The translations under genes were made by a program, and so were the position numbers. DNA of 64,000 nt from a virus: IMG/VR virus record IMGVR_UViG_3300037743_000151, positions 1-64,000 of that record. One strand, given 5' to 3'. Positions 8,129-49,023 of the stretch are shown one piece after another. Each line of letters begins with the position of its first letter. Position 1 is the first letter of the stretch. The notes beneath the pieces are model-generated. The model was not told the origin of the DNA. It did no database searches and was given only the letters and a program-made list of their open reading frames with translations.

Positions 8129-8165
8129 CCACCCCTCCCGGCGCCGCCCCAACAAGGAGAACGTG

Positions 8166-9638
8166 ATGAGTACGAGACTGACGGAACTGTCGCCAGACCA
8201 GGTGGCGGCTCTCGCCACTACCCGCGATAAATGGCTCGCCCACGGTCTCGCGACCGGCCCCGCCGACCGTGCGGAGGCGGAGGCGGGGGTGCGTGATGCG
8301 TATCGTGCTGCTGGTTTGGAGCCGCCGCAGACTGTGATCTGGCTTGACTCGCCGATGGCTGGCGCGATCGCTGCCTGGATGTTCACGACTGCTCGGGCTC
8401 AGGTCGGGGATCAGGTCGGGGCTCAGGTCCGGGCTCAGGTCTGGGCTCAGGTCCGGGATCAGGTCTGGGATCAGGTCTGGGATCAGGTCGGGGATCAGGT
8501 CTGGGCTCAGGTCGGGGATCAGGTCCGGGATCAGGTCTGGGATCAGGTCTGGGATCAGGTCGGGGATCAGGTCGGGGATCAGGTCGGGGCTCAGGTCCGG
8601 GCTCAGGTCCGGGCTCAGGTCGGGGATCAGGTCGGGGATCAGGTCCGGGATCAGGTCGGGGATCAGGTCTGGGCTCAGGTCCGGGATCAGGTCGGGGATC
8701 AGGTCTGGGCTCAGGTCGGGGATCAGGTCTGGGCTCAGGTCTGGGCTCAGGTCGGGGATCAGGTCCGGGATCAGGTCCGGGCTCAGGTCTGGGCTCAGGT
8801 CTGGGCTCAGGTCTGGGCTCAGGTCGGGGATCAGGTCCGGGCTCAGGTCGGGGATCAGGTCCGGGCTCAGGTCGGGGATCAGGTCGGGGATCAGGTCTGG
8901 GCTCAGGTCGGGGATCAGGTCCGGGCTCAGGTCGGGGATCAGGTCTGGGCTCAGGTCGGGGATCAGGTCGGGGATCAGGTCTACAAGGCCGTACCCGGAC
9001 AGCACGACGCCGGATGGCTCTCGTTCTACGACTACTTCCGCACCCACTGCACCATCCAAGAAGCCGACCGGCTCACCGGCATGATGCGCGTCTCCCAGTC
9101 CGCCGGCTGGTGGTGGCCCTTCCAGAACGCCGTCATCCTCACCGAACGTCCCACCAGCCTCCACCGCGACGGCCAAGGCCGCCTCCACAACGAGACCGGC
9201 CCCGCTCTCGCCTACCCCGACGGGTTCGCCATCTGGGCATGGCACGGCACCCGCGTGCCGCGCGACCTCATCGAAACCAACTGGAACCTCAAACAGATCT
9301 TCGACGAACCCAACGCGGAAATCCGCCGCTGCGCCATCGAAAAAATCGGCTGGGACCAGTTCATCCAAGAGTCCGGCCTACGCAAGGTGGCCTCCTGCCC
9401 CGACCCCGGGAACGCCCCCTACCACCTCGCCCTCTACGAGCTGCCCGAGCAGCTCGACAACCTCTACGACGAGCCAGCACGCATCCTCCTCGCCGTCAAC
9501 GGCAGCCCGGAACCCGACGGCGAACACCGCCGCTTCGGCCTGCCCGTCCCCGCACACCACACCGACCCCGTCGAAGCCGCAGCCGAAATGTACGGCTGGC
9601 CCGTGGCCGCCTACCAGCAGCTCGAACACCGCCGCTGA
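8166..9638 (+). CDS. DUF6745-like protein with central 49-unit tetrapeptide repeat
   Basis: ATG 8166 after AAGGAGA RBS (GTG 8163 also possible). Conserved N- and C-terminal domains flank ([D/A]QV[G/W/R])x49. The C-terminal WWWPF...ILTERP...HNETGPA pattern recalls DUF6745 (from memory). Confidence 0.75.
8397..8984 (+). repeat. 49 tandem 12-bp in-frame repeats, consensus G[A/C]T CAG GTC [G/T/C]GG
   Basis: Read directly from the sequence. Every unit has invariant CAGGTC and GG. Only unit positions 2 and 10 vary. The last unit ends TAC. Confidence 0.95.
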
Positions 9639-20198: not shown

Positions 20199-20645
20199 TC
20201 AGGGCCGCCACGACTCCAGGTAGCCGGGCCGGTCCGCGTAGGGCAGCGCGAGCAGGCGCAGCACGTAGTCGCCGTGGAACCGGCGCTTGTTTGCCTCCAG
20301 GTGCCGCGAGCACGAGTCGTACTCGTCGAAATCCTCGGGGCGTGCGCCCTCGTAATTGATGCAGGGCAGGCCGGGGTGCGGGTCAGCACCGGGCGGGAGG
20401 TAGGCGTCGAGCATCTGCCGTTTCGCGTCGATCTCCCGCAGCACCCGCGCCGGATCATGGCGGACGATGTGCTCAGCGACGCCAGCCCAGTTCGCGGAGG
20501 CACACTCCTCTGCGCGGTCACCTTCGGTAGCCACGATGACGCCGGTCTCGCCGATCTGCCGGAAGCTGTCGCCTGCTCTCCGCGCGATCCGCTCATCCTC
20601 ATCGAGGCAGGCCGTCAGCCACTGCACCAGATCCACGCCGCTCAC
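20199..20645 (-). CDS. DUF6221-like protein
   Basis: LDEDERIAR...HIVRHDPARVLREIDAKRQML...LALPYADRPGY matches the DUF6221 pattern common in Streptomyces (from memory). Confidence 0.65.
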   Translation of the reverse strand: MSGVDLVQWLTACLDEDERIARRAGDSFRQIGETGVIVATEGDRAEECASANWAGVAEHIVRHDPARVLREIDAKRQMLDAYLPPGADPHPGLPCINYEGARPEDFDEYDSCSRHLEANKRRFHGDYVLRLLALPYADRPGYLESWRP

Positions 20646-21187
20646 TCCTCAGCCTCCTCCCGGTCCGCCCACGCCAGCAGCACCGCCGCCAGATCGCGGG
20701 CGTACTGCGGGTCATCCACGACCCGGAGTCGGTTGAACCGGATCGACTGGCCGCGCCCCTGAACGATCACGTAGGCGTCGCCGCCGCTCGGGTAGTCGGC
20801 GATGCTCATGCGGGCGTACTGCCCCGCTTCGGTGCTCGCCAGAAGTGCGGCGAAATCCTGCCGGGTGTACTTCAACGGCACCCGCCAGTCGGCGTCGTTG
20901 ACGGACTCGTTCTCGTCTTGGGCGACGGCAGCCATGGACTCTCCTTGATCGGCTTCCGGGGTGAGGTCGGTCCGCTTGCCCTGCCGCTTCGGGTTGGCCT
21001 CGAACCACGCGGCCACCTCGTCGGCGCGGTAGCGGATTCTCGTGGAGCCCTCCGCCGGAACGGGCTGAGGGAAGGTGGCGCTGCGCCGGTACGTGTGCAC
21101 CGACGACCGGCTGACGCCGTGCTCCTCCGCGATCTGCCCGATGGTGATCAAGCGCGGACTCCCCTCGTGTTCAGGGCTTTTGGGCAC
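20642..21187 (-). CDS. HTH (excisionase/AlpA/MerR-like) DNA-binding protein
   Basis: ITIGQIAEEHGVSRSSVHTYRR...RYRADEVAAWFE is an HTH_17-like motif. GTG 21187 has a GGGAGG RBS 8 nt upstream; the ORF-track start at 21235 has no RBS. ATGA overlap with the downstream gene. Confidence 0.6.
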   Translation of the reverse strand: MPKSPEHEGSPRLITIGQIAEEHGVSRSSVHTYRRSATFPQPVPAEGSTRIRYRADEVAAWFEANPKRQGKRTDLTPEADQGESMAAVAQDENESVNDADWRVPLKYTRQDFAALLASTEAGQYARMSIADYPSGGDAYVIVQGRGQSIRFNRLRVVDDPQYARDLAAVLLAWADREEAEE

Positions 21188-21208
21188 GGCTACATCCTCC
21201 CTGAACAT

Positions 21209-21223
21209 CTGGACAATGTCCAG
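21209..21223. promoter_or_regulatory. 15-bp palindrome CTGGACAATGTCCAG
   Basis: Perfect 7+1+7 inverted repeat just upstream of the preferred start of the reverse HTH gene. Confidence 0.45.
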
Positions 21224-21258
21224 AAGTTCTGCCACTGTGGAACAGCACCAACGAGTAA

Positions 21259-21485: not shown

Positions 21486-21611
21486 GTGAGCGACATCGAC
21501 GCCGACATCGACGCCGCCTGGGCCCTCACCCAGCAACGCATCGCCGCAGCCGCAGCCGCCGCCGAGGCAGCCGCCCAGGCCGCACGCGCCGCCGAGGAGG
21601 CCACCCGATGA
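21486..21611 (+). CDS. small Ala-rich protein (41 aa)
   Basis: My own translation from GTG 21486. GC-rich third positions. Stop overlaps the next ATG (ATGA). Confidence 0.3.
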   Translation: MSDIDADIDAAWALTQQRIAAAAAAAEAAAQAARAAEEATR

Positions 21612-21712
21612 CCTGCTGCGGACGCCCCATGCAACAAGACGGCAACCAGTACGTCTGCCGCAAATGCGGCGCCTGGACCGACCCCGGCACACAAGCCGGA
21701 GGGCAGCACTGA
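21608..21712 (+). CDS. small zinc-ribbon protein (34 aa)
   Basis: MTCCGRPMQQDGNQYVCRKCGAW has paired Cys-Cys motifs. ATGA overlap. Confidence 0.35.
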   Translation: MTCCGRPMQQDGNQYVCRKCGAWTDPGTQAGGQH

Positions 21713-21903
21713 TGGGCTGGTTCAACCGCCGCGACCAAACAACCCGCGCCTACCCCGCCGCCGGCACCTCCGTCACCGGCGACAGCCGCCGCTTCCTTCG
21801 GGCCAAGACCGGCGGAGCCCGCCAAGCCGGACGGGGCGCCCAGGCATGGGAGGACGCCGACCGAGCCGACGAGCGCGCCCGCCGCGGCCGCTGGTCCCGC
21901 TAA
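21712..21903 (+). CDS. hypothetical protein
   Basis: ATG 21712 overlaps the upstream stop by 1 nt; 63 aa, basic. Confidence 0.4.
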   Translation: MGWFNRRDQTTRAYPAAGTSVTGDSRRFLRAKTGGARQAGRGAQAWEDADRADERARRGRWSR

Positions 21904-21914
21904 CCCACCAGACC

Positions 21915-21954
21915 GCCGGCCCAGCGCCTACAACCCCCAGAGCGCTGGGCCGGC
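21915..21954 (+). terminator. GC hairpin terminator (13-bp stem)
   Basis: GCCGGCCCAGCGC (21915-21927) pairs with GCGCTGGGCCGGC (21942-21954). Confidence 0.55.
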
Positions 21955-21982: not shown

Positions 21983-22141
21983 GTGACCCGCCGCCGCACC
22001 ACCACCCACCGCATCGGCCTACACAACCCGCTCGGACGCTTGGGCTTCACCGTGCTGGCGGCATTCGCACTCCTCAACGGACTCCTACTGCCCGGCCTCA
22101 TCTGCACCGCCATCGCCATCTACGCCTGGAGGAACCGGTGA
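21983..22141 (+). CDS. small membrane protein (52 aa)
   Basis: My own translation from GTG 21983. Basic N-terminus followed by two hydrophobic helices. GTGA overlap with the next gene. Confidence 0.35.
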   Translation: MTRRRTTTHRIGLHNPLGRLGFTVLAAFALLNGLLLPGLICTAIAIYAWRNR

Positions 22142-23205
22142 AGAAACTCACCGGAGGACAGCGCACCGTCCTCGCCCTCACCACGATCCCCATGATCGCG
22201 GTCGGGATCGGCGGGGCCATCGGCACCTACGCCAACGCCGCCTCCGTCCTCCACCGCAAAGAGACCGCCCTCGGCGTCGTCGCGGCCGGCGAAGGCGCCA
22301 CCCTCGTCGCCGCACTCGTCATGATCGTCGTGACGATGCTCGGGCAGAGCGCACCGGCCGTCGTGCGCGCAGCACTCTGGCTCCTCCCCGCCACCGCCTC
22401 CGTCATGGGCCTCGCCATCGCCCCCACCCTCCGCGAGGCCGTCGTCTTCGCCCTCACCCCCCTCGCCATGACCGCCAGCGCCGAGGGCGTTTCCTTCCTC
22501 GCCCGCCGGATCGTCGTGCACCGCACCGGCGTCGACATCGAGGCGCAGCAGCGGAACGCCTCCACGTTGCGGCAGATCGCCTACCACCGGGCGCGCGCCG
22601 AACGGCACCCGTGGAAGTGGGTACGCAGGCGGTCAACGCTGAAGGTGTGGCGGCTCCTCGGCCACGCGGGCGACGGTGACGCGCAGCTGGGCGCCGGGCT
22701 CATGGTGGTGCAGCGAGCCCGACTCACCGAGGGCGCCAGCGATGCGCTTGGTGAGCTCCTCAGCGGCAGCCCGGCTCAGCTTGAGCTCACCGCGGCTCAG
22801 CCCCCTGTGAGCCCTGAGCCTGAGCCCACCGACTTCAACGAAGTCGCCGAGACCGCGATCCACGTCGCCACGCCCGAGCCCCTCAGGGATCCGACACCGG
22901 TACCAGTCCTTGACACGGACGTCCTCCGCACCATCTCTGACCTGCCCGTCTCACGTGAGCCCGGCTTGAGCCAGGCTGAGCCAACCACCGTGAGCCGCGC
23001 TGAGCCGAGCCCCGAGCCCGCGCCTGAGCCAGAGATCAACGAGCAGGAACGCCAAGTCCTCGAACTCGCCAACCGGCTCAGAAACGGTGAGCCGCTCACC
23101 AAGACCACCGCCGCCCAGATCCTCGCCGTGAGCCCGGCCACCGCCGGCCGACGACTCAAGGAAGCCCGCGGCCGAATCAACGACGGAACGGGGCTGTACC
23201 TATGA
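22138..23205 (+). CDS. polytopic membrane protein with C-terminal HTH (DUF2637-like N-terminal domain)
   Basis: Four hydrophobic helices in the first 130 aa, a Pro/Glu-rich linker, and a C-terminal HTH-like segment (LTKTTAAQILAVSPATAGRRLKEAR). Confidence 0.65.
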   Translation: MKKLTGGQRTVLALTTIPMIAVGIGGAIGTYANAASVLHRKETALGVVAAGEGATLVAALVMIVVTMLGQSAPAVVRAALWLLPATASVMGLAIAPTLREAVVFALTPLAMTASAEGVSFLARRIVVHRTGVDIEAQQRNASTLRQIAYHRARAERHPWKWVRRRSTLKVWRLLGHAGDGDAQLGAGLMVVQRARLTEGASDALGELLSGSPAQLELTAAQPPVSPEPEPTDFNEVAETAIHVATPEPLRDPTPVPVLDTDVLRTISDLPVSREPGLSQAEPTTVSRAEPSPEPAPEPEINEQERQVLELANRLRNGEPLTKTTAAQILAVSPATAGRRLKEARGRINDGTGLYL

Positions 23206-23822
23206 GCCGCATCCCAGGCGCCGACGAGCTACGTGTGCGCGCCCTCCTCATCGCCCGCCAGGTCGGACCCGACGCCATCCCGCCGAAGCCCACGACGAGG
23301 CCGAAGGACTGGCTCGACGACATCATCACCACCGACATGGCACCCGCCGCCGAGAAGCCGGCGGAGCCCGAGCCGAAGGAGAAGCCCGCGCCGGCCGCGC
23401 CCGCGAAGGCAACCAAGCCGCGCCCCGCCAAGACCGCTACGAAGAAGAAGCCGAAGAAGGCCAAACGGCCCAAGCCCGGCACCCCCCGCGCGGCGTTCGA
23501 CGGCCGTCCGCCCGCACCCCGCCAGTCCCTCGCCGACGCCTGGGACCGGGTCCCGTACCGGCTGAAGTGGCTGGCCTACCACGCCTCCGCCGCCTATCTC
23601 GGCTGGTCAATAGGCCTGGTCGACTGGGCCACCTACGTCACCGCGTGGATCGCCACCACCGGGCTCGTTGGCCCGCAAGCCCTGTTCTGGTACTGCGCGG
23701 CCGGCGGGACCGTCCTCGTCTACCGGCGTACTCGCGGCTGGTGGACGCCCGCCGCGTGGCTTGCTGCCGTCCCTGTTACGTCCACTGTCGTCGGCGTGCT
23801 CCTGTACGCCCCGCACCCATAA
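23202..23822 (+). CDS. membrane protein with Lys/Pro/Ala-rich (histone-H1-like) cytoplasmic region
   Basis: ATGA overlap. KPAPAAPAKATKPRPAKTATKKKPKKAKRPKP is followed by 3-4 TM helices. Confidence 0.6.
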   Translation: MSRIPGADELRVRALLIARQVGPDAIPPKPTTRPKDWLDDIITTDMAPAAEKPAEPEPKEKPAPAAPAKATKPRPAKTATKKKPKKAKRPKPGTPRAAFDGRPPAPRQSLADAWDRVPYRLKWLAYHASAAYLGWSIGLVDWATYVTAWIATTGLVGPQALFWYCAAGGTVLVYRRTRGWWTPAAWLAAVPVTSTVVGVLLYAPHP

Positions 23823-23833
23823 AGGAACCTGTC

Positions 23834-24238
23834 GTGAACAGCGTGTTCGGCAACCTCGGCCCGGTCGGTCTCGCCCTCGTCCTGACGGTGCTGCTGGTGT
23901 TCGGCATCCCCGGCGGCGGGCAGTTGAAGCCGCTCGGCTGGTGGCCGACGCTGCTCCTGTCGATGCTCGCCGGGTCGGCGTACAAGGCGGCAGGCGGCCT
24001 ATTCAAGATCGTTCCGGATCTGGTTGGCAGCCTGATCGGCACCGTCAACAGTGTTCTGCCCGGCGCCACGATGCCCGCACTCGCCCTCGCGTTGGCGATC
24101 TTCATCCTGTTCAAGAAGCTGACCACCAAGCAGGTCGGCCTCCTCGGCATCGCCTTCTGGTACGTCGCTGCAGGCGCGGGCGGCACGTGGTCGTACCTGT
24201 CCGACTCGATCGCTCACCTCGGAACGAGCCTCGCGTGA
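23834..24238 (+). CDS. polytopic membrane protein
   Basis: GTG 23834 after AAAGGAA; 134 aa, almost entirely hydrophobic helices. Confidence 0.55.
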   Translation: MNSVFGNLGPVGLALVLTVLLVFGIPGGGQLKPLGWWPTLLLSMLAGSAYKAAGGLFKIVPDLVGSLIGTVNSVLPGATMPALALALAIFILFKKLTTKQVGLLGIAFWYVAAGAGGTWSYLSDSIAHLGTSLA

Positions 24239-24954
24239 GCTACTTCAACCTGCGCAAACGCGACACCGAGGCCGAGGTCGAGCCCGGCGGAGCCGAGGCG
24301 GAGGAGCCCGCGGAGACGCCGGAAGAGACCGCCGAGGAGCCGGAAGGGGAACCGGAAGGGGAGCAGCCCGCCAAGCAACACGGGCCGCTCCTCACCGGCA
24401 TCCTCGGCCCCGGACGGTGGATCGCCGCCCGCCTCGGATCTAGCTGGGCCCTCGGCGTGCACGTCGTGGCCGTGTGGGCGATCGGCTTCTACGGCGGGTG
24501 GATTGCGGCCGGCGTCATCCTCGGATGGCTGGCCGCGGTCCTCGTCTTCGTCCCGCGCGAGTTCAAGGATCGGGTCTCCGGGTGGATCGAACGGTGGATC
24601 AGCGGCCGCTCAGAGCCCGATGAGCAGCCCGAAGAGGAGCGCCCCGCAAGCGCCCCCGAAGAGGTCTACGCCGCCACCCTCCAATGGGTGCGCGGCCAGG
24701 TCGGCGACAGCAACGGAATCCACCTCTCCGACCTCCTGGCCCACGCCCACGCCCACAACCTGCACACCGACCTCGATGTGACCGCCTTCCGGGCAGTGCT
24801 GGAGAGGTGGGGATTCCCCATCCGCCAGCAGCTCAAAGTGGGTGGCAAAAACCGGCCCGGAATCCACCGCGACGACCTTCCGAAACAGCCCCTTCCGACC
24901 CCCTCCCCCGAGGAGACTGGTTCCGCAACTACCACCGCCGTCTACCCGATCTGA
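24235..24954 (+). CDS. membrane protein with acidic N-terminus and winged-helix-like C-terminus
   Basis: GTG 24235 (GTGA overlap). Glu/Pro-rich N-terminus, two TM helices, then a globular C-terminal domain. Confidence 0.6.
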   Translation: MSYFNLRKRDTEAEVEPGGAEAEEPAETPEETAEEPEGEPEGEQPAKQHGPLLTGILGPGRWIAARLGSSWALGVHVVAVWAIGFYGGWIAAGVILGWLAAVLVFVPREFKDRVSGWIERWISGRSEPDEQPEEERPASAPEEVYAATLQWVRGQVGDSNGIHLSDLLAHAHAHNLHTDLDVTAFRAVLERWGFPIRQQLKVGGKNRPGIHRDDLPKQPLPTPSPEETGSATTTAVYPI

Positions 24955-25001
24955 TCTGCGCAAATACCTTGTCGACTACCTGACTTACCTGGACGGTAAC
25001 C

Positions 25002-25838
25002 GTGCCTACCAAGGGCTCCATCTACACCCTCACCGATCCGCGCGACGGCACCATCAGGTACGTCGGCAAGACCACGAAAACCCTGCCAGAACGTCTCGCT
25101 GGCCATCTCGCGTCGCCGACCAACCCAGCCATGCGGCTGTGGATCAACACGTTGGCATCGCAGCGGATGCTTCCCCTCATCACCCTCGTGACGACCGCGG
25201 CGCAAGAGCGGCTCGGAGCCGAAGAAGAGCGACAGATCAGGAGGCACGCCGGGCGAGGGCATCGACTCTTCAACGCGCCGTACTACCACCAGCATCTGAA
25301 CGATCTCACCGCCCCGTCCGCAACCCGTAAGCCGAACGTCGCCCTTCTGTCTTCCGAGTTTCCGACCTCGCTGCCCGCCTTCTATGAGAAGCAGTACGGG
25401 GCGCTCGCCCGAGTGCGGATCACGGAGAAGCGGACTGCTGTACTCGTGGCCGCCATCGTCGCTCTCCTGGCCGTCGGAGTGGTCGCTTACATGCTCCTGA
25501 GGCTCCGGCTCGTTCGTTTCGTTGCAGCCGCCAGCATGGTCGGGTTGTACCTCTCCGGCGTCGGTTTCGATCGGCTCGTGCGGGAACAGTTGCTGCCCCG
25601 TCTGCCGGTCGAGCGGATCGTGGCCCTCTGGGACGCATACCTGGCACATCCGCTGATGCTGGTTGCGCTGCACGTTCTGGCGGCGATGTACTTCCACGCG
25701 CTGAGCGTGTACGTCGACATGCGGCGGAGCCTCCCGAAGGCGGTCGATGTGGGCCCCCCGCGCGAGTTTGGCGCCGTGGAAATTGCTGCGGCAGCGGCCC
25801 GTGACCTAGATCTGGCGGTTTTGGAAGCGAGGCCCTGA
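25002..25838 (+). CDS. GIY-YIG nuclease domain fused to three transmembrane helices
   Basis: GSIYTLTDPRDGTIRYVGKTTKTLPERLAGH ... EEERQIRRH ... LFN is a GIY-YIG signature. Residues about 150-250 form three hydrophobic helices. Codon third positions are less GC-rich than in neighbouring genes. Confidence 0.65.
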   Translation: MPTKGSIYTLTDPRDGTIRYVGKTTKTLPERLAGHLASPTNPAMRLWINTLASQRMLPLITLVTTAAQERLGAEEERQIRRHAGRGHRLFNAPYYHQHLNDLTAPSATRKPNVALLSSEFPTSLPAFYEKQYGALARVRITEKRTAVLVAAIVALLAVGVVAYMLLRLRLVRFVAAASMVGLYLSGVGFDRLVREQLLPRLPVERIVALWDAYLAHPLMLVALHVLAAMYFHALSVYVDMRRSLPKAVDVGPPREFGAVEIAAAAARDLDLAVLEARP

Positions 25839-26086
25839 TGCCGTGGATCTACGAATGCCGCGCCTGCGACGCCGTGTCACCGGACCAGCACGACCGCAGC
25901 GAGGACGCCGAAGCGGAGCAGGAACAGCACCGCACGGACGCGCACGGCGAGCTTGCGCCGGCCGCGGGGGACGGGGTACGGCGGGTGCACGCGGAGGCCC
26001 GCGGTGACGGCTGTCTACCGGCCGGATCGTGGTGGGCTGTGCTGTTCCTGCTGGCGTTGTTCCTGTCGAACTGCTGGGGCCGCTGA
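25838..26086 (+). CDS. small protein with C-terminal membrane helix
   Basis: ATG overlaps the upstream stop by 1 nt; 82 aa. N-terminal CRAC motif; C-terminal WWAVLFLLALFL. Confidence 0.45.
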   Translation: MPWIYECRACDAVSPDQHDRSEDAEAEQEQHRTDAHGELAPAAGDGVRRVHAEARGDGCLPAGSWWAVLFLLALFLSNCWGR

Positions 26087-26139: not shown

Positions 26140-26181
26140 ACGAAGGCCGCCAGACTTTCCCCCCCATCTGGTGGCCTTCGT
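26140..26181. terminator. hairpin terminator (13-14 bp stem) between convergent operons
   Basis: ACGAAGGCCGCCAG pairs with CTGGTGGCCTTCGT (one G-U pair). Confidence 0.55.
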
Positions 26182-26188
26182 CATTCCC

Positions 26189-26212
26189 GCCCCGCTCGAT
26201 TCCGGGCGGGGC
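26189..26212. terminator. second GC hairpin
   Basis: GCCCCGC (26189-26195) pairs with GCGGGGC (26206-26212). Lies 6 nt beyond the stop of the reverse operon. Confidence 0.45.
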
Positions 26213-43895: not shown

Positions 43896-45677
43896 ATGGC
43901 CTGGTGGCACACCTTCACCCGACGCGGCACACCCACGCCCACACCCCTCCCCACCCACACCGAACAGCAACCCAACGCAATCACCGCCGCCGCAGCACCC
44001 GTCTCCAGCCCCCGCACCGACCTCATCCGCAACACCGACGGCTGGCAAGAAGAAGTCTGGGGATTCCACGACACCCTCGGCGAATTCCGGTACGCCACCG
44101 ACTGGGAAGCCAAACGCTTCTCCCGCGTCCGCCTCTACGCCGCCAAGCTGGAGCCAGGGGCCGACGAGCCCGTACGCGCCAAGGCCGGAACCGCCGTCGA
44201 CCTCATGACGGCGTTCGCTGGTGGCCCCGCCGGACAAGCGCAGATCATGGGCGGCCTCGCCACGCAACTACGGGTCCCCGGCGAGGGCTACCTCATCGTC
44301 GAGAGCGTGAGCGGTATCGAGCAGTGGTCGGTGCGCTCCATCGACGAAGTCCGTGCCGCACGCCAGCGGTACGAGGTCATCGACGAGAACAGCCCGCAGT
44401 CCGGCAACAACTGGCGCCCCCTCGCCCCCGACTCGATGGCACCGATCCGGGTATGGCGGCCGAACAAGCGCTGGCACCACATCGCCGACAGCCCCACCCG
44501 CGCCGCGCGTTCCACGATGCGGGAACTGGAGTTGGTGAACCGGCACATCGTTGCCCAGTACCTGTCGCGGCTCGCGTCCGCCGGTGTCGTCATGTTCCCG
44601 TCGGAGGTCACCTTCCCGCAGAAGGAGGAGTTCGCCGACGCGCCGGACCCGTTTGTCGCCGAGTGGATCGAGAACGCGAGGGTCGCGATCGATCAGCCGG
44701 GCACCGCCAGTGCCGTGATCCCGATGCCGATCAAGGTGCCTTCCGAGCTCGTCGAAAAGATCAAGCATCTCGACTTCACCCTGAAGATCGACGAGAAGAT
44801 CATCGAGAAGCGGGACAGCGCCATCAAGCGCCTCGCCTCCCAGCTCAACGTGCCCGCCGAAGTCCTACTCGGCATGGGCGATTTGAACCACTGGAACGCC
44901 TGGAGCAGCGACGAAACCAGCCTCAAAGTCGACGTCGCCCCCGACGCCGAACTCATCTGCCAGGCCATGACCACCGGCTACCTCCAGCCCCGCCTCAAAG
45001 CATCCGGCGTCGAAGACTGGGCGAACTGGGTCATCTGGTACGACATGTCAGAACTGACCCTGCGCCCCGACCGGTCAGACGACGCCATCGCCCTGTACGA
45101 CCGCCTGGAACTCAACGGCGCAGCCCTCCGCCGCGAAACCGGATTCAACGAAGCCGACAAGCCGACCAACGAGGAACTCAAAGAGCAGGCCCTCAAGGTC
45201 ATCATCCACACCCTGCCGTCCGGCGCCGGTAGCGCGCTCACCGAACTCATCGGCGAGCAGGTCACCATCGCCGCGACCGCACCCATCGCCCCCGGCGAAC
45301 AACCCGAGCCGGAGCCCCCGCCGGAAGACCGCACACCACCCGACCCCGACATTGCACGCGAGGCGACCGCGCAAGCCCGCGAGGACCGCATGGTTGCGCA
45401 GGCCCGCGAGCTGCACGCCGTCCGGTTCACGGTCGGCCGGCCTACGGAGCTGCTGCACCCGGCGGCGTGTTCGCAGCACGCCTACTCCTGCCCGTTCACG
45501 CACGCCGCATTGAAGCTCGCCGACCTGCCGAGGCCCGGGACGTCGGGTGTGTATGAGGCGCGCCTGGATCCGTTCGGCCGGTTCACGATCGGCCGGCATG
45601 CGCCGCTGATGGACACGTCCGGCTTCTTCTCGACGATGACTCGGAGCAGTAATGGATTCGCTCGCAGCCGCGGCTGA
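43896..45677 (+). CDS. portal protein
   Basis: ATG 43896 after AGGGAGA RBS; 593 aa. Assigned from position (after terminase, before the MuF/protease gene), size and acidic/helical composition typical of actinophage portals. Confidence 0.7.
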   Translation: MAWWHTFTRRGTPTPTPLPTHTEQQPNAITAAAAPVSSPRTDLIRNTDGWQEEVWGFHDTLGEFRYATDWEAKRFSRVRLYAAKLEPGADEPVRAKAGTAVDLMTAFAGGPAGQAQIMGGLATQLRVPGEGYLIVESVSGIEQWSVRSIDEVRAARQRYEVIDENSPQSGNNWRPLAPDSMAPIRVWRPNKRWHHIADSPTRAARSTMRELELVNRHIVAQYLSRLASAGVVMFPSEVTFPQKEEFADAPDPFVAEWIENARVAIDQPGTASAVIPMPIKVPSELVEKIKHLDFTLKIDEKIIEKRDSAIKRLASQLNVPAEVLLGMGDLNHWNAWSSDETSLKVDVAPDAELICQAMTTGYLQPRLKASGVEDWANWVIWYDMSELTLRPDRSDDAIALYDRLELNGAALRRETGFNEADKPTNEELKEQALKVIIHTLPSGAGSALTELIGEQVTIAATAPIAPGEQPEPEPPPEDRTPPDPDIAREATAQAREDRMVAQARELHAVRFTVGRPTELLHPAACSQHAYSCPFTHAALKLADLPRPGTSGVYEARLDPFGRFTIGRHAPLMDTSGFFSTMTRSSNGFARSRG

Positions 45678-48600
45678 CGGCTCGCACATGTCGGGCGCGA
45701 TGGTGGCGCTGATGCCGACGCCGGAGGATGCGGCCCGGCTGGCGATCGAGGGCGGCGAGGACGCGGAGCAACTGCACCTGACGCTGTACTTCCTCGGCGA
45801 CGACGGCGACGCGTGGACCGAGGACCAGCAAGCAGAGCTGATCGGCAGCCTGCGAGCGCTCGCCGCCTCCCAACTATCCGGGCCCATCACCGGGTTCGCG
45901 TTCGGTGCGAACCACTGGAACGCAGGCAGCGACTCCCCGTCGTGGGTGTGGGCCGTCGGCGACGACCGCGACCGGGAGGCCGACGCACCCTCACTGGCCG
46001 CCGCGCGCACGGTCACCACGATGGCGCTGGAGGACATCCACGAGCGGCCGTATCTCCCTGTGCAGCACTCGCCTTGGGTGCCGCATATCTGTGCCGCGTA
46101 CTCCGATGAGCTGGACCTCATCATCGCCCTGGAGGAGCGCCTCGGACCGGTCGTCTTCGACCGGATCCGGGTGGCGTTCGCCGGGGACTACACCGACATC
46201 CCCCTCGGCGGCGCGGTGACTGCGGCGGCCGAGTGCACTTGCCCTCCGCAGGCTGCAGCCGAATCGGACAGCGATCCGGACTGTCGGCACCATGCGTACA
46301 ACATCCTGATCGCCGCCGGGGCGTCACTGCGTCGTCAGCCCACCGAGTTGGAGCTCGCCTCCCGCGTCGACTTCGCCGCCATGGACAAGGCCTGGCACGA
46401 AGCCGTCGACAGCACCGTCGAAGCCTGGGCCGACATCCAGACCGCGATGCGAGCCGAGGTCACCGCCAGCATCCAGGCCGCAGCCGAAGCCGACGACTTG
46501 GACAGCCTCGACGGCCTCACCATCGACACCGCTGACGGCGCCGCCCTCCTGATCGCCCGCATGATCGCCTACGCGCGGGAGGCAGGCGAGCAGCAGCAGG
46601 CCGAGGCCGAAGCGCAGGGCGTCAGCGTCCCGGAGTGGTCGCTGGACGATGAGGCGATCACCGCAGCTGCGATCCGGGACCGGCTGCGGCAGATCGGCCG
46701 GACGGCCGCGCGGGTGCTGGGTGTCGGGCTGGTGCAGTCCGCGGTCCGGCAGGCGATGCGCGTATGGGGCTCCGGGTCGGCGCAGCAGGTGGCGGCGCAG
46801 GTCGACGAGCACCTTGCCGGGCTGTCGGGTGCGGCTGTCGAGGAGCAGGTTGGCGGGGCGATGTCGGCGGCCCAGAACGAGGGGCGCCTCGCGGTGCTCG
46901 CGGTCGCGCCGGCCGCCCTGCACGTGGCCACGGAGGCGCTCGACCTCAACTCATGTAAGCCCTGCCGCGACATCGACGGCACCGAGTACGACACCCTCAC
47001 CGCGGCCCGTACCGCTTACCCGTCCGGCGGCTACACGGGCTGTCTCGGCGGCGCGCGCTGTCGGGGCACGCTCGTCACCGTGTGGCCTCAGGACAGCGAG
47101 CAGGCCGCCGCCGGAATGATCTTGGCTGCGAGCGCGGCCACAATACCGCCGACCGACCACGAGCAAGGAGGCGGCAGCGTGCCGTACAGCATCGTGCAAG
47201 ACCACCCGGACTGCGGTGCCGACAAGCCGTGGGCCGTCACCAAGGACGCCGACAACAGCCTGATGGGCTGCCACGACAGCGAGGCCGCAGCCGAGGAGCA
47301 GCGCGCCGCCCTGTATGCCGAAGAGGGCGGCATGCCCAACGACATGGACAAGCCCGACGACGAGGACATGGACTACGCAGGCAAGACCGCCCCCTGGCGT
47401 GGCCCCCTCGCCATCGAAGGACAGGTCACCGGCGACGGCCGCGAATTCGCCCCCGAAGCCCTCACCTGGGCCGAACTCCCCGTACCACTCCGGTGGAACA
47501 AGGAAGACTCCCACGGCGGAGAAGCCCGCACCATCGCAGTCAACGTGGGCCGCATCGACAAGATCTGGCGCGACGGCAGCCTCATCATGGGCGAAGGCGT
47601 TCTCGACCTCTCCGACGACGACGGCCGCCGCGTCCACGCCAAGATCGAAGGCAAGTTCCTCCGCGGCGTGTCCATCGACGCCGACTCCATCGCCGACGCC
47701 GACGTCGAGTTCGTGTGGCCCGAAGACGCCAACGCCGGAACCGAAGAAGGCGAAGAGGGCGACCTGCTGGAGATGCTGTTCGCCCAGCCGGAGAAAATGA
47801 TTTTCCACGGCGGACGCATCCGCGCCGCGACCCTCGTCGACATCCCCGCCTTCGCCGAGGCGTACATCGCACTCCTCGACGAGGCCGGCGCGGTCGTGGC
47901 CGGAGGGCAGCCCATTGGCGAGGCCGCGCTTCAGCTGGCGTTGCAGGAGATGGGTGCGGTAGGCACCCACACCACCGCCACCTCCGATGGGCCCTGGGAC
48001 GCAGGCGTGAACGAGAAGCGCATCGACGGCCCGCTGACGGTCGCGAAGGCGCGGGCGGCGTACGGCTGGTACGACGGCGCCGCAGTCTCCGACGGCGAAC
48101 TGCCGAAGTCCGCGGCAAAGTTCCTGCACCACGAGATCAACGCCGACGGAACCGCGGGCGCGGCGAACCTTGCCGCCTGCTCGGCATCCATCGGCGCCTT
48201 GCACGGCGCCCGCGGCGGCACGAGCATCCCGGACGCGGACCGGCGCGGCGTGTACGACCACGTTGCCGGGCACCTGCGGGACGCGGGGCAGGAGCCGGAG
48301 CCGTTCCGTTCCCTGCGTTCCGTCACCGCCAGCGCTCCGGCCTCGCATCCGGCGATGACCGGCATGTGGAAGCCTCCCGCCGAGTGGTTCAGTGATCCGG
48401 ATCTGCCGTTCCACTGCGGGATCGTCGTCACCGACCAGGGGCGCCTGTACGGGCATGCGGCGCCGTGGGGCGCCTGCCATATCGGGTTCGACGGCGAGTG
48501 CGTCACCGTCCCGAGGGAGAGTGAGCACTCGCACTACATGACCGGTGAGACGGTCTGTGACGACGGGTCGCGGGTGGCGGTCGGTCAGATCACTGTGGGG

Positions 48601-49023
48601 ACGGGGCATGCGCCGCTGCATTTCGGGGCGCAGCCTGCGGCGGAGCACTACGACAACACGGGCACCGCGGTGGCGGATGTCGCGGTCGGCAACGACAAGC
48701 ACGGCATTTGGGTCGCGGGTGCGATCCGTCCGAACGCCGACCCTCTGAGTGTGTACGAGCTGCGGGCATCCGGGCGGGTGTCGGGTGACTGGCGGCGTAT
48801 CGGCGGCCAGCTGCGCATGGTCGGACTGCTCGGGGTCAACGTCGCCGGGTTCCTGGAGGAGGCGAAGATGCGGACGTTGGTTTCCGCTGGGCGGCCTCAG
48901 GCGTTGGTGGCGGCGGGTGTTCCGAAGCAGCGGTGGGCCATGTCGAAGGACGAGATGGAGCGTCAGGCCGTGCGGGTCGTGATGCGGATGCTCAGCCGTC
49001 GCGTGCACCCGGGAAGGGGGTGA
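45652..49023 (+). CDS. polyprotein: 2H-phosphoesterase-like domain + MuF-like head morphogenesis domain + prohead protease-like domains
   Basis: 1123 aa. The N-terminus has HLTL (H42) and PHICAAY, which are 2H HxT/S-type motifs. CKPCRDIDGTEYD...GCLGGARCRGTLV is MuF-like. ELPVPLRWNKEDSHGG...VGRIDKIW...RGVSIDAD is S78-like. The C-terminal YGHAAPWGACHIGF...GIWVAGAIRP...SGDWRRIGG resembles actinophage capsid maturation proteases. Confidence 0.7.
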   Translation: MDSLAAAADGSHMSGAMVALMPTPEDAARLAIEGGEDAEQLHLTLYFLGDDGDAWTEDQQAELIGSLRALAASQLSGPITGFAFGANHWNAGSDSPSWVWAVGDDRDREADAPSLAAARTVTTMALEDIHERPYLPVQHSPWVPHICAAYSDELDLIIALEERLGPVVFDRIRVAFAGDYTDIPLGGAVTAAAECTCPPQAAAESDSDPDCRHHAYNILIAAGASLRRQPTELELASRVDFAAMDKAWHEAVDSTVEAWADIQTAMRAEVTASIQAAAEADDLDSLDGLTIDTADGAALLIARMIAYAREAGEQQQAEAEAQGVSVPEWSLDDEAITAAAIRDRLRQIGRTAARVLGVGLVQSAVRQAMRVWGSGSAQQVAAQVDEHLAGLSGAAVEEQVGGAMSAAQNEGRLAVLAVAPAALHVATEALDLNSCKPCRDIDGTEYDTLTAARTAYPSGGYTGCLGGARCRGTLVTVWPQDSEQAAAGMILAASAATIPPTDHEQGGGSVPYSIVQDHPDCGADKPWAVTKDADNSLMGCHDSEAAAEEQRAALYAEEGGMPNDMDKPDDEDMDYAGKTAPWRGPLAIEGQVTGDGREFAPEALTWAELPVPLRWNKEDSHGGEARTIAVNVGRIDKIWRDGSLIMGEGVLDLSDDDGRRVHAKIEGKFLRGVSIDADSIADADVEFVWPEDANAGTEEGEEGDLLEMLFAQPEKMIFHGGRIRAATLVDIPAFAEAYIALLDEAGAVVAGGQPIGEAALQLALQEMGAVGTHTTATSDGPWDAGVNEKRIDGPLTVAKARAAYGWYDGAAVSDGELPKSAAKFLHHEINADGTAGAANLAACSASIGALHGARGGTSIPDADRRGVYDHVAGHLRDAGQEPEPFRSLRSVTASAPASHPAMTGMWKPPAEWFSDPDLPFHCGIVVTDQGRLYGHAAPWGACHIGFDGECVTVPRESEHSHYMTGETVCDDGSRVAVGQITVGTGHAPLHFGAQPAAEHYDNTGTAVADVAVGNDKHGIWVAGAIRPNADPLSVYELRASGRVSGDWRRIGGQLRMVGLLGVNVAGFLEEAKMRTLVSAGRPQALVAAGVPKQRWAMSKDEMERQAVRVVMRMLSRRVHPGRG

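What the first reader, a model, noticed from the sequence alone, without database searches (positions are those of the whole stretch)
21983..26086. Terminator-bounded operon of seven membrane proteins carrying DNA-binding and nuclease appendages
Between hairpin 21915-21954 and the double hairpin 26140-26212 lie seven co-directional genes, mostly overlapping. All are predicted membrane proteins:
- a 52-aa two-helix peptide
- a four-helix protein with a C-terminal HTH (DUF2637-like)
- a protein whose cytoplasmic part is a Lys/Pro/Ala-rich histone-H1-like tract (KPAPAAPAKATKPRPAKTATKKKPKKAKRPKP)
- a purely hydrophobic 134-aa protein
- a protein with an acidic N-terminus, two helices and a winged-helix-like C-terminus
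- a GIY-YIG nuclease with three TM helices
- an 82-aa Cys-motif protein with a C-terminal helix

A phage has no obvious need for a membrane-embedded complex that can both bind and cut DNA. The architecture (small overlapping hydrophobic genes, DNA-binding membrane proteins) resembles the spd intramycelial-spread operons of Streptomyces conjugative plasmids and AICEs (established: Spd proteins are membrane proteins, and SpdB2 binds DNA). I cannot show sequence homology.

Candidate roles are superinfection exclusion at the DNA-entry step, a membrane-sited defence system expressed from a prophage, or phage DNA spread between hyphal compartments.
Basis: partly seen in the sequence, partly recalled or inferred. 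Interest (0 to 1): 0.68.

Follow-up and report, generated by a model that had tools for sequence, protein, structure and literature searches.

The report
Phage-borne Spd-like membrane DNA-handling gene module
A Streptomyces phage carries a tightly packed set of small membrane-protein genes built around a relative of the plasmid "spread" protein SpdB2, which suggests that phages of filamentous bacteria borrowed plasmid machinery to handle DNA at the cell membrane, a function that has not been tested.

Summary
Window 21983-26086 carries seven co-directional, mostly overlapping genes for predicted membrane proteins, bounded by strong GC-rich hairpins, inside a siphovirus-type Streptomyces phage genome.

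g2 (four TM helices plus a C-terminal HTH) is 55% identical to the "conjugal transfer protein" that sits beside TraB-like genes on 15-kb Streptomyces conjugative plasmids. It also has relatives in pZL12/pSLE1-type phage-plasmids and in virulent Woodruffvirus phages, next to a pIJ101-Tra homologue. Its family grades into Pfam DUF2637, and from there to pJV1 SpdB2, phiC31 gp25 and VWB gp24.

- **Conserved block:** g3, g4, g5 and g7 travel together in at least 25 Streptomyces prophage, phage-plasmid and phage loci, and have no detectable relatives among known Spd proteins.
- **Swappable slot:** the g2 position is filled by any of four SpdB-class TM domain types.
- **No motor:** no TraB/FtsK-type ATPase is present in the window.
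- **Optional nuclease:** g6, a catalytically intact GIY-YIG nuclease with a hydrophobic tail, is not core. NERD and T5orf172 nucleases are attached to the module elsewhere.

Best reading: a phage version of the plasmid spread apparatus. Its role (DNA spread between hyphal compartments versus exclusion at DNA entry) is unresolved. It is a new variant of a known kind.

The parts
21486..21611 (+). u1, 41-aa Ala-rich small ORF upstream of the module
   Evidence: ORF and overlap with u2. No homologue was detected in related loci, so this gene call is weak.
21608..21712 (+). u2, 34-aa Cys-rich (CC...CxxC) zinc-ribbon-like peptide
   Evidence: Sequence. Homologues lie upstream of the module in L022 and L029.
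21712..21903 (+). u3, 63-aa basic protein conserved upstream of the module
   Evidence: 55-70% identical copies sit at the same position in L009/L030, L021, L026, L032/33, L050, L052, L057 and L058.
21915..21954 (+). GC-rich hairpin between u3 and g1, a terminator or attenuator candidate
   Evidence: -32.7 kcal/mol, z = -6.1. Hairpins of different sequence occupy the same place in L014, L016, L024, L026, L027 and L030. It lies only 29 nt before the g1 start.
21983..22141 (+). g1, 52-aa basic-N-terminus hydrophobic peptide whose stop overlaps the g2 start
   Evidence: Frame plot. Hydrophobic stretch at residues 17-49. 48-88% identical in L009/30, L026, L027, L031, L035, L049, L053 and L058. Woodruffvirus phages have positional analogues (Xkcd426 gp75, TP1604 gp68).
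22138..23205 (+). g2, SpdB-class protein with four TM helices, three further helices, a Pro/Glu-rich disordered linker and a C-terminal HTH
   Evidence: AF2 model. phrog_16651 at 1e-58. 55% identical to the plasmid 'conjugal transfer protein' beside a TraB-like gene. 15/83 family members hit DUF2637. hhalign to DUF2637-type proteins gives E 2.4e-4 over 119 collinear columns. Weak Sigma70_r4 match at residues 300-346.
23202..23822 (+). g3, with a conserved N-terminal motif, acidic linker, polybasic Lys/Pro/Ala tract and a C-terminal domain of about 3 TM helices
   Evidence: Sequence. TM segments at 121-139, 145-163 and 186-204. The C-terminal domain is conserved in more than 25 loci and the polybasic patch is conserved in position.
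23834..24238 (+). g4, 134-aa protein with four predicted TM helices
   Evidence: phrog_38677 at 5e-32. 60-85% identical in 25 loci. TM segments.
24235..24954 (+). g5, with an acidic disordered N-terminus, two TM helices and a cytoplasmic winged-helix domain
   Evidence: AF2 places a winged helix at residues 141-214 with pLDDT 88-96. Foldseek returns only generic winged-helix hits with E above 0.3. The family has 117 members, all Streptomyces-type and without a Pfam domain. The family HMM also hits the ORF after VWB gp24 and ORFs in L005, L016, L037 and TurkishDelight.
25002..25838 (+). g6, an optional member with an N-terminal GIY-YIG nuclease domain (about residues 1-95) and a C-terminal hydrophobic domain (about 3 segments)
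   Evidence: Pfam GIY-YIG at E 9e-4, below the curated cut-off. Y8, Y20, R31, H35, E75 and N91 are invariant in 57 homologues. PDB profile hit to a GIY-YIG protein at E 0.014. Hydrophobic regions at 147-190 and 207-241 are conserved across the family. It sits next to a g5 homologue in L005, L037 and about 18 contigs, and is absent from about 25 loci where g7 follows g5 directly.
25838..26086 (+). g7, a tail-anchored 82-aa protein with a C-x2-C...H-x4-H motif and a C-terminal TM helix ending in NCWGR
   Evidence: Alignment of 18 homologues. Always follows g5 in related loci. TurkishDelight gp101 is a distant member.
26140..26212 (.). Two tandem GC-rich hairpins (26140-26181, 26189-26212) between convergent genes, a bidirectional terminator candidate
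   Evidence: Fold at -71.6 kcal/mol, z = -4.5 on the + strand. Hairpins are present after g7 in all relatives examined.

Best explanation
The cluster is a phage-borne derivative of the Streptomyces plasmid 'spread' (Spd) apparatus.

Proposed parts:
- g2 is an SpdB2/DUF2637-class protein: a four-helix membrane domain with a cytoplasmic HTH. The characterised plasmid member, SpdB2 of pSVH1, is an oligomeric, pore-forming, dsDNA-binding membrane protein.
- g2 is co-translated with g1 and with four phage-specific partners. Each partner anchors a nucleic-acid-binding-type module on the cytoplasmic face.
  - g3: a juxtamembrane polybasic tract.
  - g4: membrane core only.
  - g5: a winged helix.
  - g7: a Cys2His2-type knuckle.

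Proposed mechanism (inferred, not shown): these proteins assemble into a DNA-binding membrane complex at hyphal membranes or cross-walls. The complex passes phage DNA from an infected or induced compartment into neighbouring compartments of the mycelium, enlarging the infection or lysogenisation unit. Because the module has no ATPase, it would need a resident TraB/FtsK-type pump from an AICE, a plasmid or the host, or it would act passively.

g6 is a lineage-specific add-on that places a GIY-YIG nuclease at the same membrane site.

What is shown here: gene structure, conservation, homology of g2, predicted folds, and absence of a motor in the window. What is inferred: complex formation, DNA binding, localisation and direction of transfer.
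For: 1. g2 is homologous to the plasmid 'conjugal transfer protein', encoded one gene upstream of an 815-aa weak-FtsK_SpoIIIE (TraB-like) protein. Those 15-kb plasmids also carry a GntR regulator, and one of them a kilB gene.
2. In pSLE1, a pZL12-like plasmid-phage (PMC4487206), the g2 homologue lies 3.5 kb upstream of a 774-aa TraB-like gene next to the terminase.
3. In Woodruffvirus phages, a g1-like peptide and a g2 homologue lie one gene from a protein 39% identical to pIJ101 Tra. One of these phages, Geonosis, is strictly virulent (bioRxiv 10.1101/2024.02.26.582091). There the protein must act during lytic growth, not from a prophage.
4. Family-level links to DUF2637, and from there to pJV1 SpdB2, phiC31 gp25 and VWB gp24.
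5. The same slot is filled by four SpdB-class TM domain types, while the C-terminal linker and HTH are shared between the g2-type and DUF2637-type proteins (L027/L028).
6. The operon style, with small translationally coupled membrane genes, matches the published description of spd operons. Thoma et al. 2015 proposed that phage SpdB2 homologues assist phage DNA spreading (PMC4447253).
7. g3-g4-g5-g7 are conserved together in at least 25 loci. The SpdB-class plus g5-class pair extends to VWB and TurkishDelight.
8. Predicted DNA-binding folds in g2 and g5.
Against: - No TraB/FtsK-type gene was found in the 64-kb window. The only Walker A motifs are in the terminase and one 149-aa ORF. None was found within 8-10 kb of the module in about 25 related phage loci. 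In plasmids, spreading depends on TraB (PMC4447253).
- About 8 kb of the source contig lies outside the window and could not be read.
- g1, g3, g4, g5 and g7 have no detectable similarity to any plasmid Spd protein.
- Pfam describes DUF2637 as a family found across Actinobacteria (recalled from my own knowledge, not tested here). A weak Foldseek hit to a Gordonia phage DUF2637 protein hints that non-mycelial hosts have it too, which would argue against a role specific to mycelia.
- Membrane-tethered nucleases were recruited to the module repeatedly: g6, NERD and T5orf172. That fits DNA destruction better than DNA delivery.
- There is no experimental evidence for any phage SpdB homologue.
Confidence: 0.4

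Rival explanations
1. Superinfection exclusion or membrane-sited defence. The complex sits at the cytoplasmic membrane of the lysogen or infected hypha and captures incoming foreign DNA from phages or conjugative elements at the entry site. In nuclease-bearing variants (g6, NERD) it cuts that DNA, as the E. coli membrane nuclease SNIPE does during injection.
For: [quoted passage not shown]
- g6 is a catalytically intact GIY-YIG domain with a conserved hydrophobic tail.
- A second, unrelated TM-anchored nuclease-like protein (NERD) is inserted in the module in L022, L027 and L050. T5orf172 domains occur in 2 of 83 g2-family proteins.
- The unit is insulated by hairpins on both sides, like a moron.
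- Most relatives are integrated prophages.
- The high diversity of the slot-2 TM domain and of the g5 C-terminus would fit an arms race.
- A distant g6 homologue lies beside DUF4365 and SLFN_AlbA_2 genes.
Against: - No PADLOC model matches g1-g7, so g6 matches no model in the library. g6 also lacks DUF4041, the middle domain of SNIPE, and has the reverse domain order.
- About 85% of related loci have no nuclease at all.
- g2 homologues occur with a TraB pump in strictly virulent phages (bioRxiv 10.1101/2024.02.26.582091).
- The only characterised relatives promote DNA passage rather than block it (PMC4447253).
Confidence: 0.27
2. Conjugation-like horizontal transfer of the phage or prophage genome as dsDNA. 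The module serves as the membrane part of a transfer apparatus, and a TraB pump supplied in trans by a resident AICE or plasmid drives transfer between mycelia. pZL12-type plasmid-phages do this with their own tra locus.
For: - g2 homologues lie in the transfer regions of conjugative plasmids and of pSLE1/pZL12-type plasmid-phages (PMC4487206).
- pZL12 transfer needs a tra gene plus two adjacent genes (PMC3583192).
Against: - In plasmids, Spd proteins are largely dispensable for primary transfer and TraB alone suffices (PMC4447253).
- No TraB gene is present in the window, and no clt-like repeat was sought.
- The g3-g5 and g7 partners are absent from the plasmids examined, apart from prophage-like regions.
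Confidence: 0.1
3. Membrane tethering of the phage genome for replication, segregation or packaging. This would be analogous to the membrane-anchored DNA-binding protein p16.7 of phage phi29 (named from my own knowledge), with no DNA passage across membranes.
For: - Several membrane-anchored putative DNA-binding modules: the g2 HTH, the g3 basic tract, the g5 winged helix and the g7 zinc knuckle.
- The module lies between the replication and packaging modules.
Against: - There is no homology to any such system.
- It does not explain the specific kinship of g2 with conjugal-transfer proteins.
- It does not explain the co-occurrence with TraB in other elements.
Confidence: 0.1
4. For g6 only: a free-standing homing-endonuclease-like selfish gene that has inserted between g5 and g7 and has no role in the module.
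For: - Its distribution is patchy, and it sits exactly where relatives have only a short g5-g7 spacer.
- The GIY-YIG domain is N-terminal, as in I-TevI-type homing endonucleases (from my own knowledge).
- It is always found at the same locus, which is what homing would produce.
Against: - The C-terminal half is a conserved hydrophobic domain rather than a DNA-binding domain.
- The g6 stop overlaps the g7 start by one base.
- Family members are only 40-66% identical, implying long residence at the site.
- An unrelated TM-anchored NERD protein was recruited independently.
Confidence: 0.3
5. A holin or lysis-timing cassette.
For: It consists of small hydrophobic proteins in a phage.
Against: - No endolysin is adjacent.
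- The unit lies between early and replication genes and the terminase, not after the tail genes.
- There are no holin PHROG or Pfam hits.
- Cytoplasmic DNA-binding-type domains are not holin features.
Confidence: 0.03

Closest known systems
SpdB2 and the spd spread operons of Streptomyces conjugative plasmids and AICEs (pSVH1, pJV1, pIJ101)
   Same: - A four-TM protein with a cytoplasmic DNA-binding part.
- Small, translationally coupled membrane-protein genes.
- Sequence kinship of g2 with plasmid transfer-region proteins and, through DUF2637-type intermediates, with pJV1 SpdB2.
   Different: - No TraB translocase and no GntR-type TraR next to the operon.
- g2 has no direct BLAST similarity to pJV1 SpdB2 or pIJ101 SpdB.
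- The partners g1, g3, g4, g5 and g7 are unrelated to SpdA, SpdB1, SpdB3, KilB or Orf66.
- The host element is a siphovirus-type phage.
SpdB2 homologues already noted on actinophages: phiC31 gp25 and VWB gp24 (Thoma et al. 2015, PMC4447253)
   Same: - Phage-encoded SpdB2-class proteins. phiC31 gp25 matches pJV1 SpdB2 (E 3e-10).
- VWB gp24 is 67% identical to the DUF2637-type protein that occupies the g2 slot in related modules.
- VWB also has a g5-family ORF directly downstream.
   Different: - phiC31 has no g3, g4, g5 or g7 homologues beside gp25.
- The window's g2 belongs to a different sub-family (phrog_16651).
- The full g1-g5 plus g7 block has not been described, to my knowledge.
Transfer loci of pZL12/pSLE1 plasmid-phages, and the g2-plus-TraB pair of Woodruffvirus (cluster BG) phages
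   Same: g2 homologues at 44-58% identity. Woodruffvirus phages also have a small hydrophobic peptide just upstream.
   Different: - Those elements carry their own TraB-like pump.
- They lack g3, g4, g5 and g7.
SNIPE (PD-lambda-1), a membrane-bound GIY-YIG nuclease that cuts phage DNA during injection (PMC13190303)
   Same: g6 combines a GIY-YIG nuclease domain with predicted membrane anchoring.
   Different: - SNIPE has an N-terminal TM helix, then DUF4041, then a C-terminal GIY-YIG domain. g6 has an N-terminal GIY-YIG domain, then about three hydrophobic segments, and no DUF4041.
- g6 has no PADLOC hit.
- g6 is embedded in a multi-gene module rather than acting as a single-gene system.

Membership tests
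SpdB2 / DUF2637 (PF10935) class of Streptomyces spread proteins (g2) | Integral membrane protein with four N-terminal TM helices | tested here: met
   The AF2 model has helices at 6-38, 44-67, 74-94 and 98-130. Hydropathy scans agree.
SpdB2 / DUF2637 (PF10935) class of Streptomyces spread proteins (g2) | Direct match of the protein itself to the Pfam DUF2637 model, or BLAST similarity to SpdB2 or SpdB | tested here: not met
   No DUF2637 hit at E <= 1. BLASTP against pJV1 SpdB2 and pIJ101 SpdB gives E > 0.6. hhalign of the g2 family against single SpdB2 or SpdB sequences is not significant.
SpdB2 / DUF2637 (PF10935) class of Streptomyces spread proteins (g2) | Family-level (transitive) homology to DUF2637 and SpdB2 | tested here: met
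   15 of 83 g2-family members hit PF10935, best E 2.8e-6. hhalign of the g2 N-domain against DUF2637-type proteins gives E 2.4e-4 over 119 collinear columns, with probability only 44%. DUF2637-type proteins against pJV1 SpdB2 give probability 83%, E 8.6e-6.
SpdB2 / DUF2637 (PF10935) class of Streptomyces spread proteins (g2) | Oligomeric pore formation, non-specific dsDNA binding, and requirement for pock formation or spreading | not testable with these tools
   These properties are defined experimentally for pSVH1 SpdB2 (PMC4447253). Here there is only a predicted HTH.
Spd/Tra spread-and-transfer system as a whole | An FtsK/SpoIIIE-like TraB translocase encoded with the spd genes | tested here: not met
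   tblastn with five TraB/FtsK-like queries finds nothing in the window. Walker A motifs occur only in the terminase and one 149-aa ORF. About 8 kb of the source contig is unseen.
Spd/Tra spread-and-transfer system as a whole | Operon of 3-7 small, often overlapping genes for membrane proteins | tested here: met
   Seven genes with four overlapping junctions, all with hydrophobic segments.
Spd/Tra spread-and-transfer system as a whole | Divergent GntR-type TraR/KorA repressor | tested here: not met
   The divergent neighbours are an HTH_17 protein and a DUF6221 protein, not a GntR-type protein.
GIY-YIG nuclease superfamily (g6) | GIY...YIG motifs plus catalytic Arg, His/Tyr, Glu and Asn residues | tested here: met
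   Y8, Y20, G22, R31, H35, E75 and N91 are invariant in 57 homologues. Pfam GIY-YIG scores E 9e-4 at 19.9 bits, below the 22.6-bit cut-off. A PDB GIY-YIG protein is hit at E 0.014.
SNIPE / PD-lambda-1 defence system (g6) | N-terminal TM helix, DUF4041 and C-terminal GIY-YIG domain, with a match to the defence-system model | tested here: not met
   No PADLOC hit, no DUF4041 in Pfam, and the domain order is reversed.
Winged-helix DNA-binding domains (g5 C-terminus) | H-beta-H-H-beta-beta topology | tested here: met
   AF2 predicts this topology at residues 141-214 with pLDDT 88-96. Foldseek hits are all winged-helix proteins, but with E >= 0.38. There is no sequence-level PDB hit and no relation to the TraB C-terminus.
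Holin / lysis cassette | Adjacency to an endolysin after the tail genes, and a match to a holin family | tested here: not met
   The unit lies 13.7 kb upstream of the terminase. It has no holin or endolysin hits.

The most novel reading that the evidence does not exclude
Temperate Streptomyces phages carry a motor-less, Spd-derived membrane conduit made of an SpdB-class pore plus g3, g4, g5 and g7. It would let the phage genome move between hyphal compartments without virions. Interchangeable membrane-tethered nucleases (GIY-YIG, NERD) would turn the same gate into a one-way filter against competing DNA. That would be a combined spread-and-exclusion organelle specific to phages of multicellular bacteria.
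Probability: 0.2. Interest if true: 0.85.

Novelty: new variant of a known kind. Interest (0 to 1): 0.58.

Why it matters
How phages cope with a multicellular, compartmented host is an open question in Streptomyces biology. The 2015 suggestion that phage SpdB2 homologues spread phage DNA has never been tested.

This analysis defines a discrete, conserved and widespread gene block:
- an SpdB-class protein with a swappable membrane domain;
- four fixed phage-specific partners;
- optional membrane-tethered nucleases.

The block can be deleted, transplanted and imaged, which makes the idea directly testable.

It also shows that plasmid transfer and spread parts (SpdB, and in some phages TraB itself) circulate among virulent phages, temperate phages, phage-plasmids and plasmids. 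This blurs the line between conjugation and infection in actinomycetes.

If the exclusion reading is right instead, the module would be a multi-protein Gram-positive counterpart of SNIPE-type defence at the DNA-entry site.

Tried and rejected
- **Nucleotide search:** megablast of the region and of the structural half against INPHARED phages found no match.
- **Single-sequence family scans of g1-g7:**
  - Pfam gave only two sub-threshold hits: Sigma70_r4 for g2 and GIY-YIG for g6.
  - NCBIfam gave nothing useful.
  - PADLOC gave nothing for g1-g7.
- **Direct comparison of g2 with classical Spd proteins:** BLASTP against pJV1 SpdB2 and pIJ101 SpdB was negative. Those two proteins have no Pfam hit either.
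- **Exhaustive search with the g2 N-domain:** phmmer against 1.84 billion representatives found only 117 clusters and did not reach SpdB2.
- **Profile comparisons of the partner families (g1, g3, g4, g5, g7):** all were below 5% hhalign probability. Targets tested:
  - KilB/SpdB3, SpdB1, SpdA and Orf66;
  - the genes downstream of the pSLE1 g2 homologue;
  - phiC31 gp23, gp26, gp27 and gp28;
  - Mischief19 gp78.
- **g5 winged helix:** unrelated to the TraB C-terminal domain and to the g2 HTH. Foldseek against PDB gave only generic winged-helix hits.
- **The 8 kb of the source contig outside the window:** five encoding-contig look-ups failed because the contig is not on record.
- **Alignment-based scans:** The narrower TraB scan found only Woodruffvirus-like contigs, none of which carries the module.
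- **g6 in viral contigs:** no hit.
- **Promoter and terminator consensus scan:** no sigma-70-like promoter and no T-tailed terminator. This is uninformative for Streptomyces.
- **tRNA scan:** none found.
- **Holin/lysis reading:** rejected on genomic context.

Full report
**1. What the window is**

The window is about 69% G+C. It encodes a siphovirus-type phage:
- large terminase at 39778;
- portal at 43716;
- a MuF/protease-like fusion at 45652;
- major head protein at 49217;
- tape measure protein at 56738.

Early and replication-type genes occupy the first 20 kb on the + strand. The closest relatives of the region lie in Streptomyces chromosomes and in 50-80 kb IMG/VR prophage contigs. There they sit between replication genes (DnaB, Ku, ligase, DUF6221) and the terminase and portal genes. 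The element therefore belongs to a family of temperate Streptomyces phages. No close nucleotide relative exists among deposited phage genomes.

**2.

- **Coding.** Four junctions overlap.
- **Flanks.** Minus-strand genes lie on both sides. On the left are a DUF6221 protein and an HTH_17 protein. On the right are two unknown proteins and an endonuclease VII.
- **Hairpins.** The hairpin at 21915-21954 folds at -32.7 kcal/mol (z = -6.1). The tandem hairpins at 26140-26212 are also genuine. Relatives carry equally strong hairpins of different sequence at both positions, which argues for a conserved RNA-level element.

Two qualifications apply.
- Three small co-directional ORFs (u1-u3, 21486-21903) precede the first hairpin. 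u2 and u3 are conserved with the module.
- Only 29 nt separate the hairpin from g1. Transcription probably enters from upstream by read-through. This is an inference.

**3. The individual products match their descriptions**

| Gene | Features |
|---|---|
| g2 | Four TM helices, three further helices, a disordered Pro/Glu linker, a three-helix HTH (pLDDT above 90) |
| g3 | Conserved N-terminal motif, acidic linker, polybasic patch conserved in position just before about three TM segments |
| g4 | Four hydrophobic segments |
| g5 | Acidic disordered N-terminus, two TM helices, winged helix at residues 141-214 (pLDDT 88-96) |
| g6 | Every GIY-YIG catalytic residue invariant across 57 homologues; two family-conserved hydrophobic regions |
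| g7 | Conserved C-x2-C...H-x4-H motif and a C-terminal TM helix |

For g5, Foldseek returns only generic winged-helix proteins at non-significant E-values. Membrane insertion and DNA binding are predictions for all seven products.

**4. g2 links the cluster to conjugative spread machinery**

g2 has no Pfam hit of its own except a weak Sigma70_r4 match in the HTH. Its homologues appear in four settings.
- **Woodruffvirus (cluster BG) phages.** The homologue sits one gene away from an "FtsK-like" protein and just after a small hydrophobic peptide. That FtsK-like protein is 39% identical over about 620 residues to pIJ101 Tra.
- **85-91 kb plasmids.** These include pSLE1, which is a pZL12-like plasmid-phage (PMC4487206). 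There a 774-aa weak-FtsK_SpoIIIE protein lies 3.5 kb downstream, beside the terminase.
- **15-kb Streptomyces plasmids.** These carry a GntR regulator (one also kilB) and an 815-aa TraB-like gene adjacent to the g2 homologue, which NCBI names "conjugal transfer protein".
- **Many prophages**.

At the family level:
- 15 of 83 representatives hit PF10935 DUF2637, and most carry a C-terminal HTH.
- hhalign aligns the g2 N-domain collinearly with DUF2637-type proteins (E 2.4e-4, probability 44%).
- DUF2637-type proteins align with pJV1 SpdB2 (probability 83%, E 8.6e-6).
- pJV1 SpdB2 finds phiC31 gp25, phiBT1 gp25 and TG1.
- The DUF2637-type domain is 67% identical to VWB gp24.

The link is transitive rather than direct.

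**5. The module and its variable slot**

tblastn and HMM searches over 60 fetched loci show g3-g4-g5-g7 contiguous, in that order, in at least 25 distinct loci. These include Streptomyces prophages and phages, phage TurkishDelight (gp98-gp101), plasmid pSITFR-21c and a prophage-like region of a 320-kb linear plasmid.

The gene in front of g3 is modular. Its N-terminal TM domain can be:
- g2-type;
- DUF2637/VWB-type;
- pIJ101-SpdB-like (E 1e-4);
- TurkishDelight-gp97-type.

The linker-plus-HTH tail of g2 is shared with DUF2637-type proteins at 46-56% identity. Interchange of SpdB-class domains in one slot is strong evidence that the slot needs an SpdB-type function.

The minimal recurring pair is an SpdB-class protein plus a g5-class protein. 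It is also seen in VWB, L005, L016 and L037.

None of the g1, g3, g4, g5 or g7 families shows profile similarity to known Spd, KilB or SpdA proteins. The same holds for the genes that follow the g2 homologues in pSLE1 and for the genes around gp25 in phiC31. They are a phage-specific set with no functional annotation: PHROGs lists them as unknown, and no Pfam family matches.

**6. There is no motor**

No TraB/FtsK homologue was found in the window or within 8-10 kb of the module in the related phage loci. The window's only Walker A motifs are in the terminase and in a 149-aa ORF. About 8 kb of the 71,979-bp source contig could not be retrieved. A distal TraB gene therefore cannot be excluded.

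**7. The nuclease is optional**

g6 is missing from about 25 loci in which g7 follows g5 directly. It is present right after g5 in L005 and L037. By shared contigs and adjacent locus tags, it is also next to a g5 homologue in about 18 further contigs. It associates with one sub-type of the g5 winged-helix domain.

The g6 stop overlaps the g7 start by one base. Two readings remain open:
- an integrated membrane-tethered nuclease;
- a homing-endonuclease-like insert with an unusual C-terminal domain.

Two other nuclease types attach to the module.
- NERD-domain proteins with an N-terminal TM helix sit between the SpdB-class gene and g3 in L022, L027 and L050.
- T5orf172/MUG113 domains occur in two g2-family proteins.

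This convergent recruitment suggests that cutting DNA at this membrane site is sometimes useful. SNIPE, a membrane-bound GIY-YIG nuclease that cleaves phage DNA during injection (PMC13190303), is a functional precedent. g6 is not a SNIPE homologue: it has no PADLOC hit, no DUF4041 domain and the reverse domain order.

**8. Most likely mechanism**

I commit to a phage-borne Spd-derived membrane complex that binds DNA on the cytoplasmic face and passes phage DNA between hyphal compartments (confidence about 0.4).

The main support:
- g2 is kin to transfer and spread proteins.
- g2 homologues co-occur with a genuine Tra pump in strictly virulent phages such as Geonosis (bioRxiv 10.1101/2024.02.26.582091), which places at least that sub-family in lytic growth.
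- The operon style matches spd operons (PMC4447253).

The main weaknesses:
- The motor is missing.
- The partner proteins are novel.
- DUF2637 is described by Pfam as a family found across Actinobacteria (my recollection, not tested). That could include non-mycelial hosts, as a weak Foldseek hit to a Gordonia phage protein hints.
- Nucleases are recruited to the module.

The strongest rival is exclusion or defence at the DNA-entry step (about 0.27). It is favoured by the nucleases, by the insulated moron-like layout and by prophage residence. It is disfavoured by the nuclease-free majority of loci, by the virulent-phage homologues and by the absence of any known defence signature. Trans-mobilisation by a resident TraB and membrane tethering for replication are minor rivals. 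A lysis role is rejected on context.

**9. Novelty and score**

SpdB2 homologues on actinophages are in the literature as a one-line remark, so the kind is known. The new points are:
- the delineation of a conserved multi-gene block with a swappable SpdB-class slot;
- four fixed, previously uncharacterised partners;
- the absence of TraB;
- recurrent membrane-tethered nucleases.

I rate it a new variant of a known kind, with interest 0.58. A Streptomyces phage or plasmid specialist would find it noteworthy rather than astonishing. It turns a long-standing speculation into concrete experiments.

Noticed in passing
L002 7760-9808 (TP1604), L003 7719-9737 (Xkcd426), L001 8030-9925 (Mischief19), compared with L018 3897-5843 (pIJ101): The 'FtsK-like DNA translocase' of Woodruffvirus (cluster BG) phages is a close homologue of the pIJ101 conjugation protein Tra: 39% identity over about 620 aa, E 1e-129. 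It sits with a g1-like peptide and a g2 homologue, so these largely virulent phages carry a plasmid-type tra/spd pair at the genome end.
   Followed up: partly
L022 7707-8372, L027 6523-7215, L050 about 8549-9031: A NERD (nuclease-related domain) protein with an N-terminal TM helix is inserted between the SpdB-class gene and the g3 homologue in three related modules. It is a second membrane-tethered nuclease type, unrelated to g6.
   Followed up: partly
Alignment A1 (g2 family): Two of 83 g2-family proteins also match T5orf172/MUG113, which are GIY-YIG-like domains.
   Followed up: no
L061 6468-8168 (phage VWB, annotated gp25/gp26 region): The reading frame directly after the VWB SpdB2-like gp24 matches the g5-family HMM (E 2.5e-15). 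The 2005 annotation, with overlapping gp25 and gp26, may not reflect the real genes.
   Followed up: partly
L038 9001-10041 (Kitasatospora purpeofusca contig): A distant g6 homologue (33% identity, 346 aa, named GIY-YIG nuclease family protein) lies outside any phage context, beside DUF4365 and SLFN_AlbA_2 genes. The neighbourhood resembles a defence island.
   Followed up: partly
L019 1778-2221 (pJV1 SpdB3 position) and L013 878-1330 (pSLE1): NCBI names these KilB/SpdB3-type small membrane proteins of Streptomyces plasmids 'Pycsar system effector family protein'. That hints at kinship between plasmid kil/spread proteins and membrane-disrupting defence effectors.
   Followed up: no
window 21915-21954 and the equivalent sites in L014, L016, L024, L026, L027 and L030: A strong hairpin is conserved in position but not in sequence, about 30 nt upstream of g1 or of the gene occupying the g2 position. 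This leaves no room for a promoter, so expression of the module may depend on regulated read-through (antitermination).
   Followed up: partly
window 8163-9638: A 491-aa protein whose central 200 residues or so are tetrapeptide repeats of the form (D/A)QV(W/G/R), followed by a DUF6745 domain (E 7e-44).
   Followed up: no
window 33973-38682; L014 16359-18815: A cluster of epimerase-like, glycosyltransferase and methyltransferase genes lies immediately upstream of the terminase. Relative L014 has a 2OG-Fe(II) oxygenase, glycosyltransferases and a methyltransferase at the same place. This could be a DNA or virion modification module.
   Followed up: no
window 45652-49023: A 1123-aa ORF combines an N-terminal RNA-ligase-like region (phrog_2659, residues 4-187) with families that PHROGs labels portal protein, head maturation protease and virion structural protein. 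It sits directly after the portal gene.
   Followed up: no
window 20642-21235 (minus strand): The divergent HTH_17 protein next to the module gives weak PADLOC hits to PDC-M06B and mad1 (E about 5e-6). This is probably only HTH similarity.
   Followed up: no
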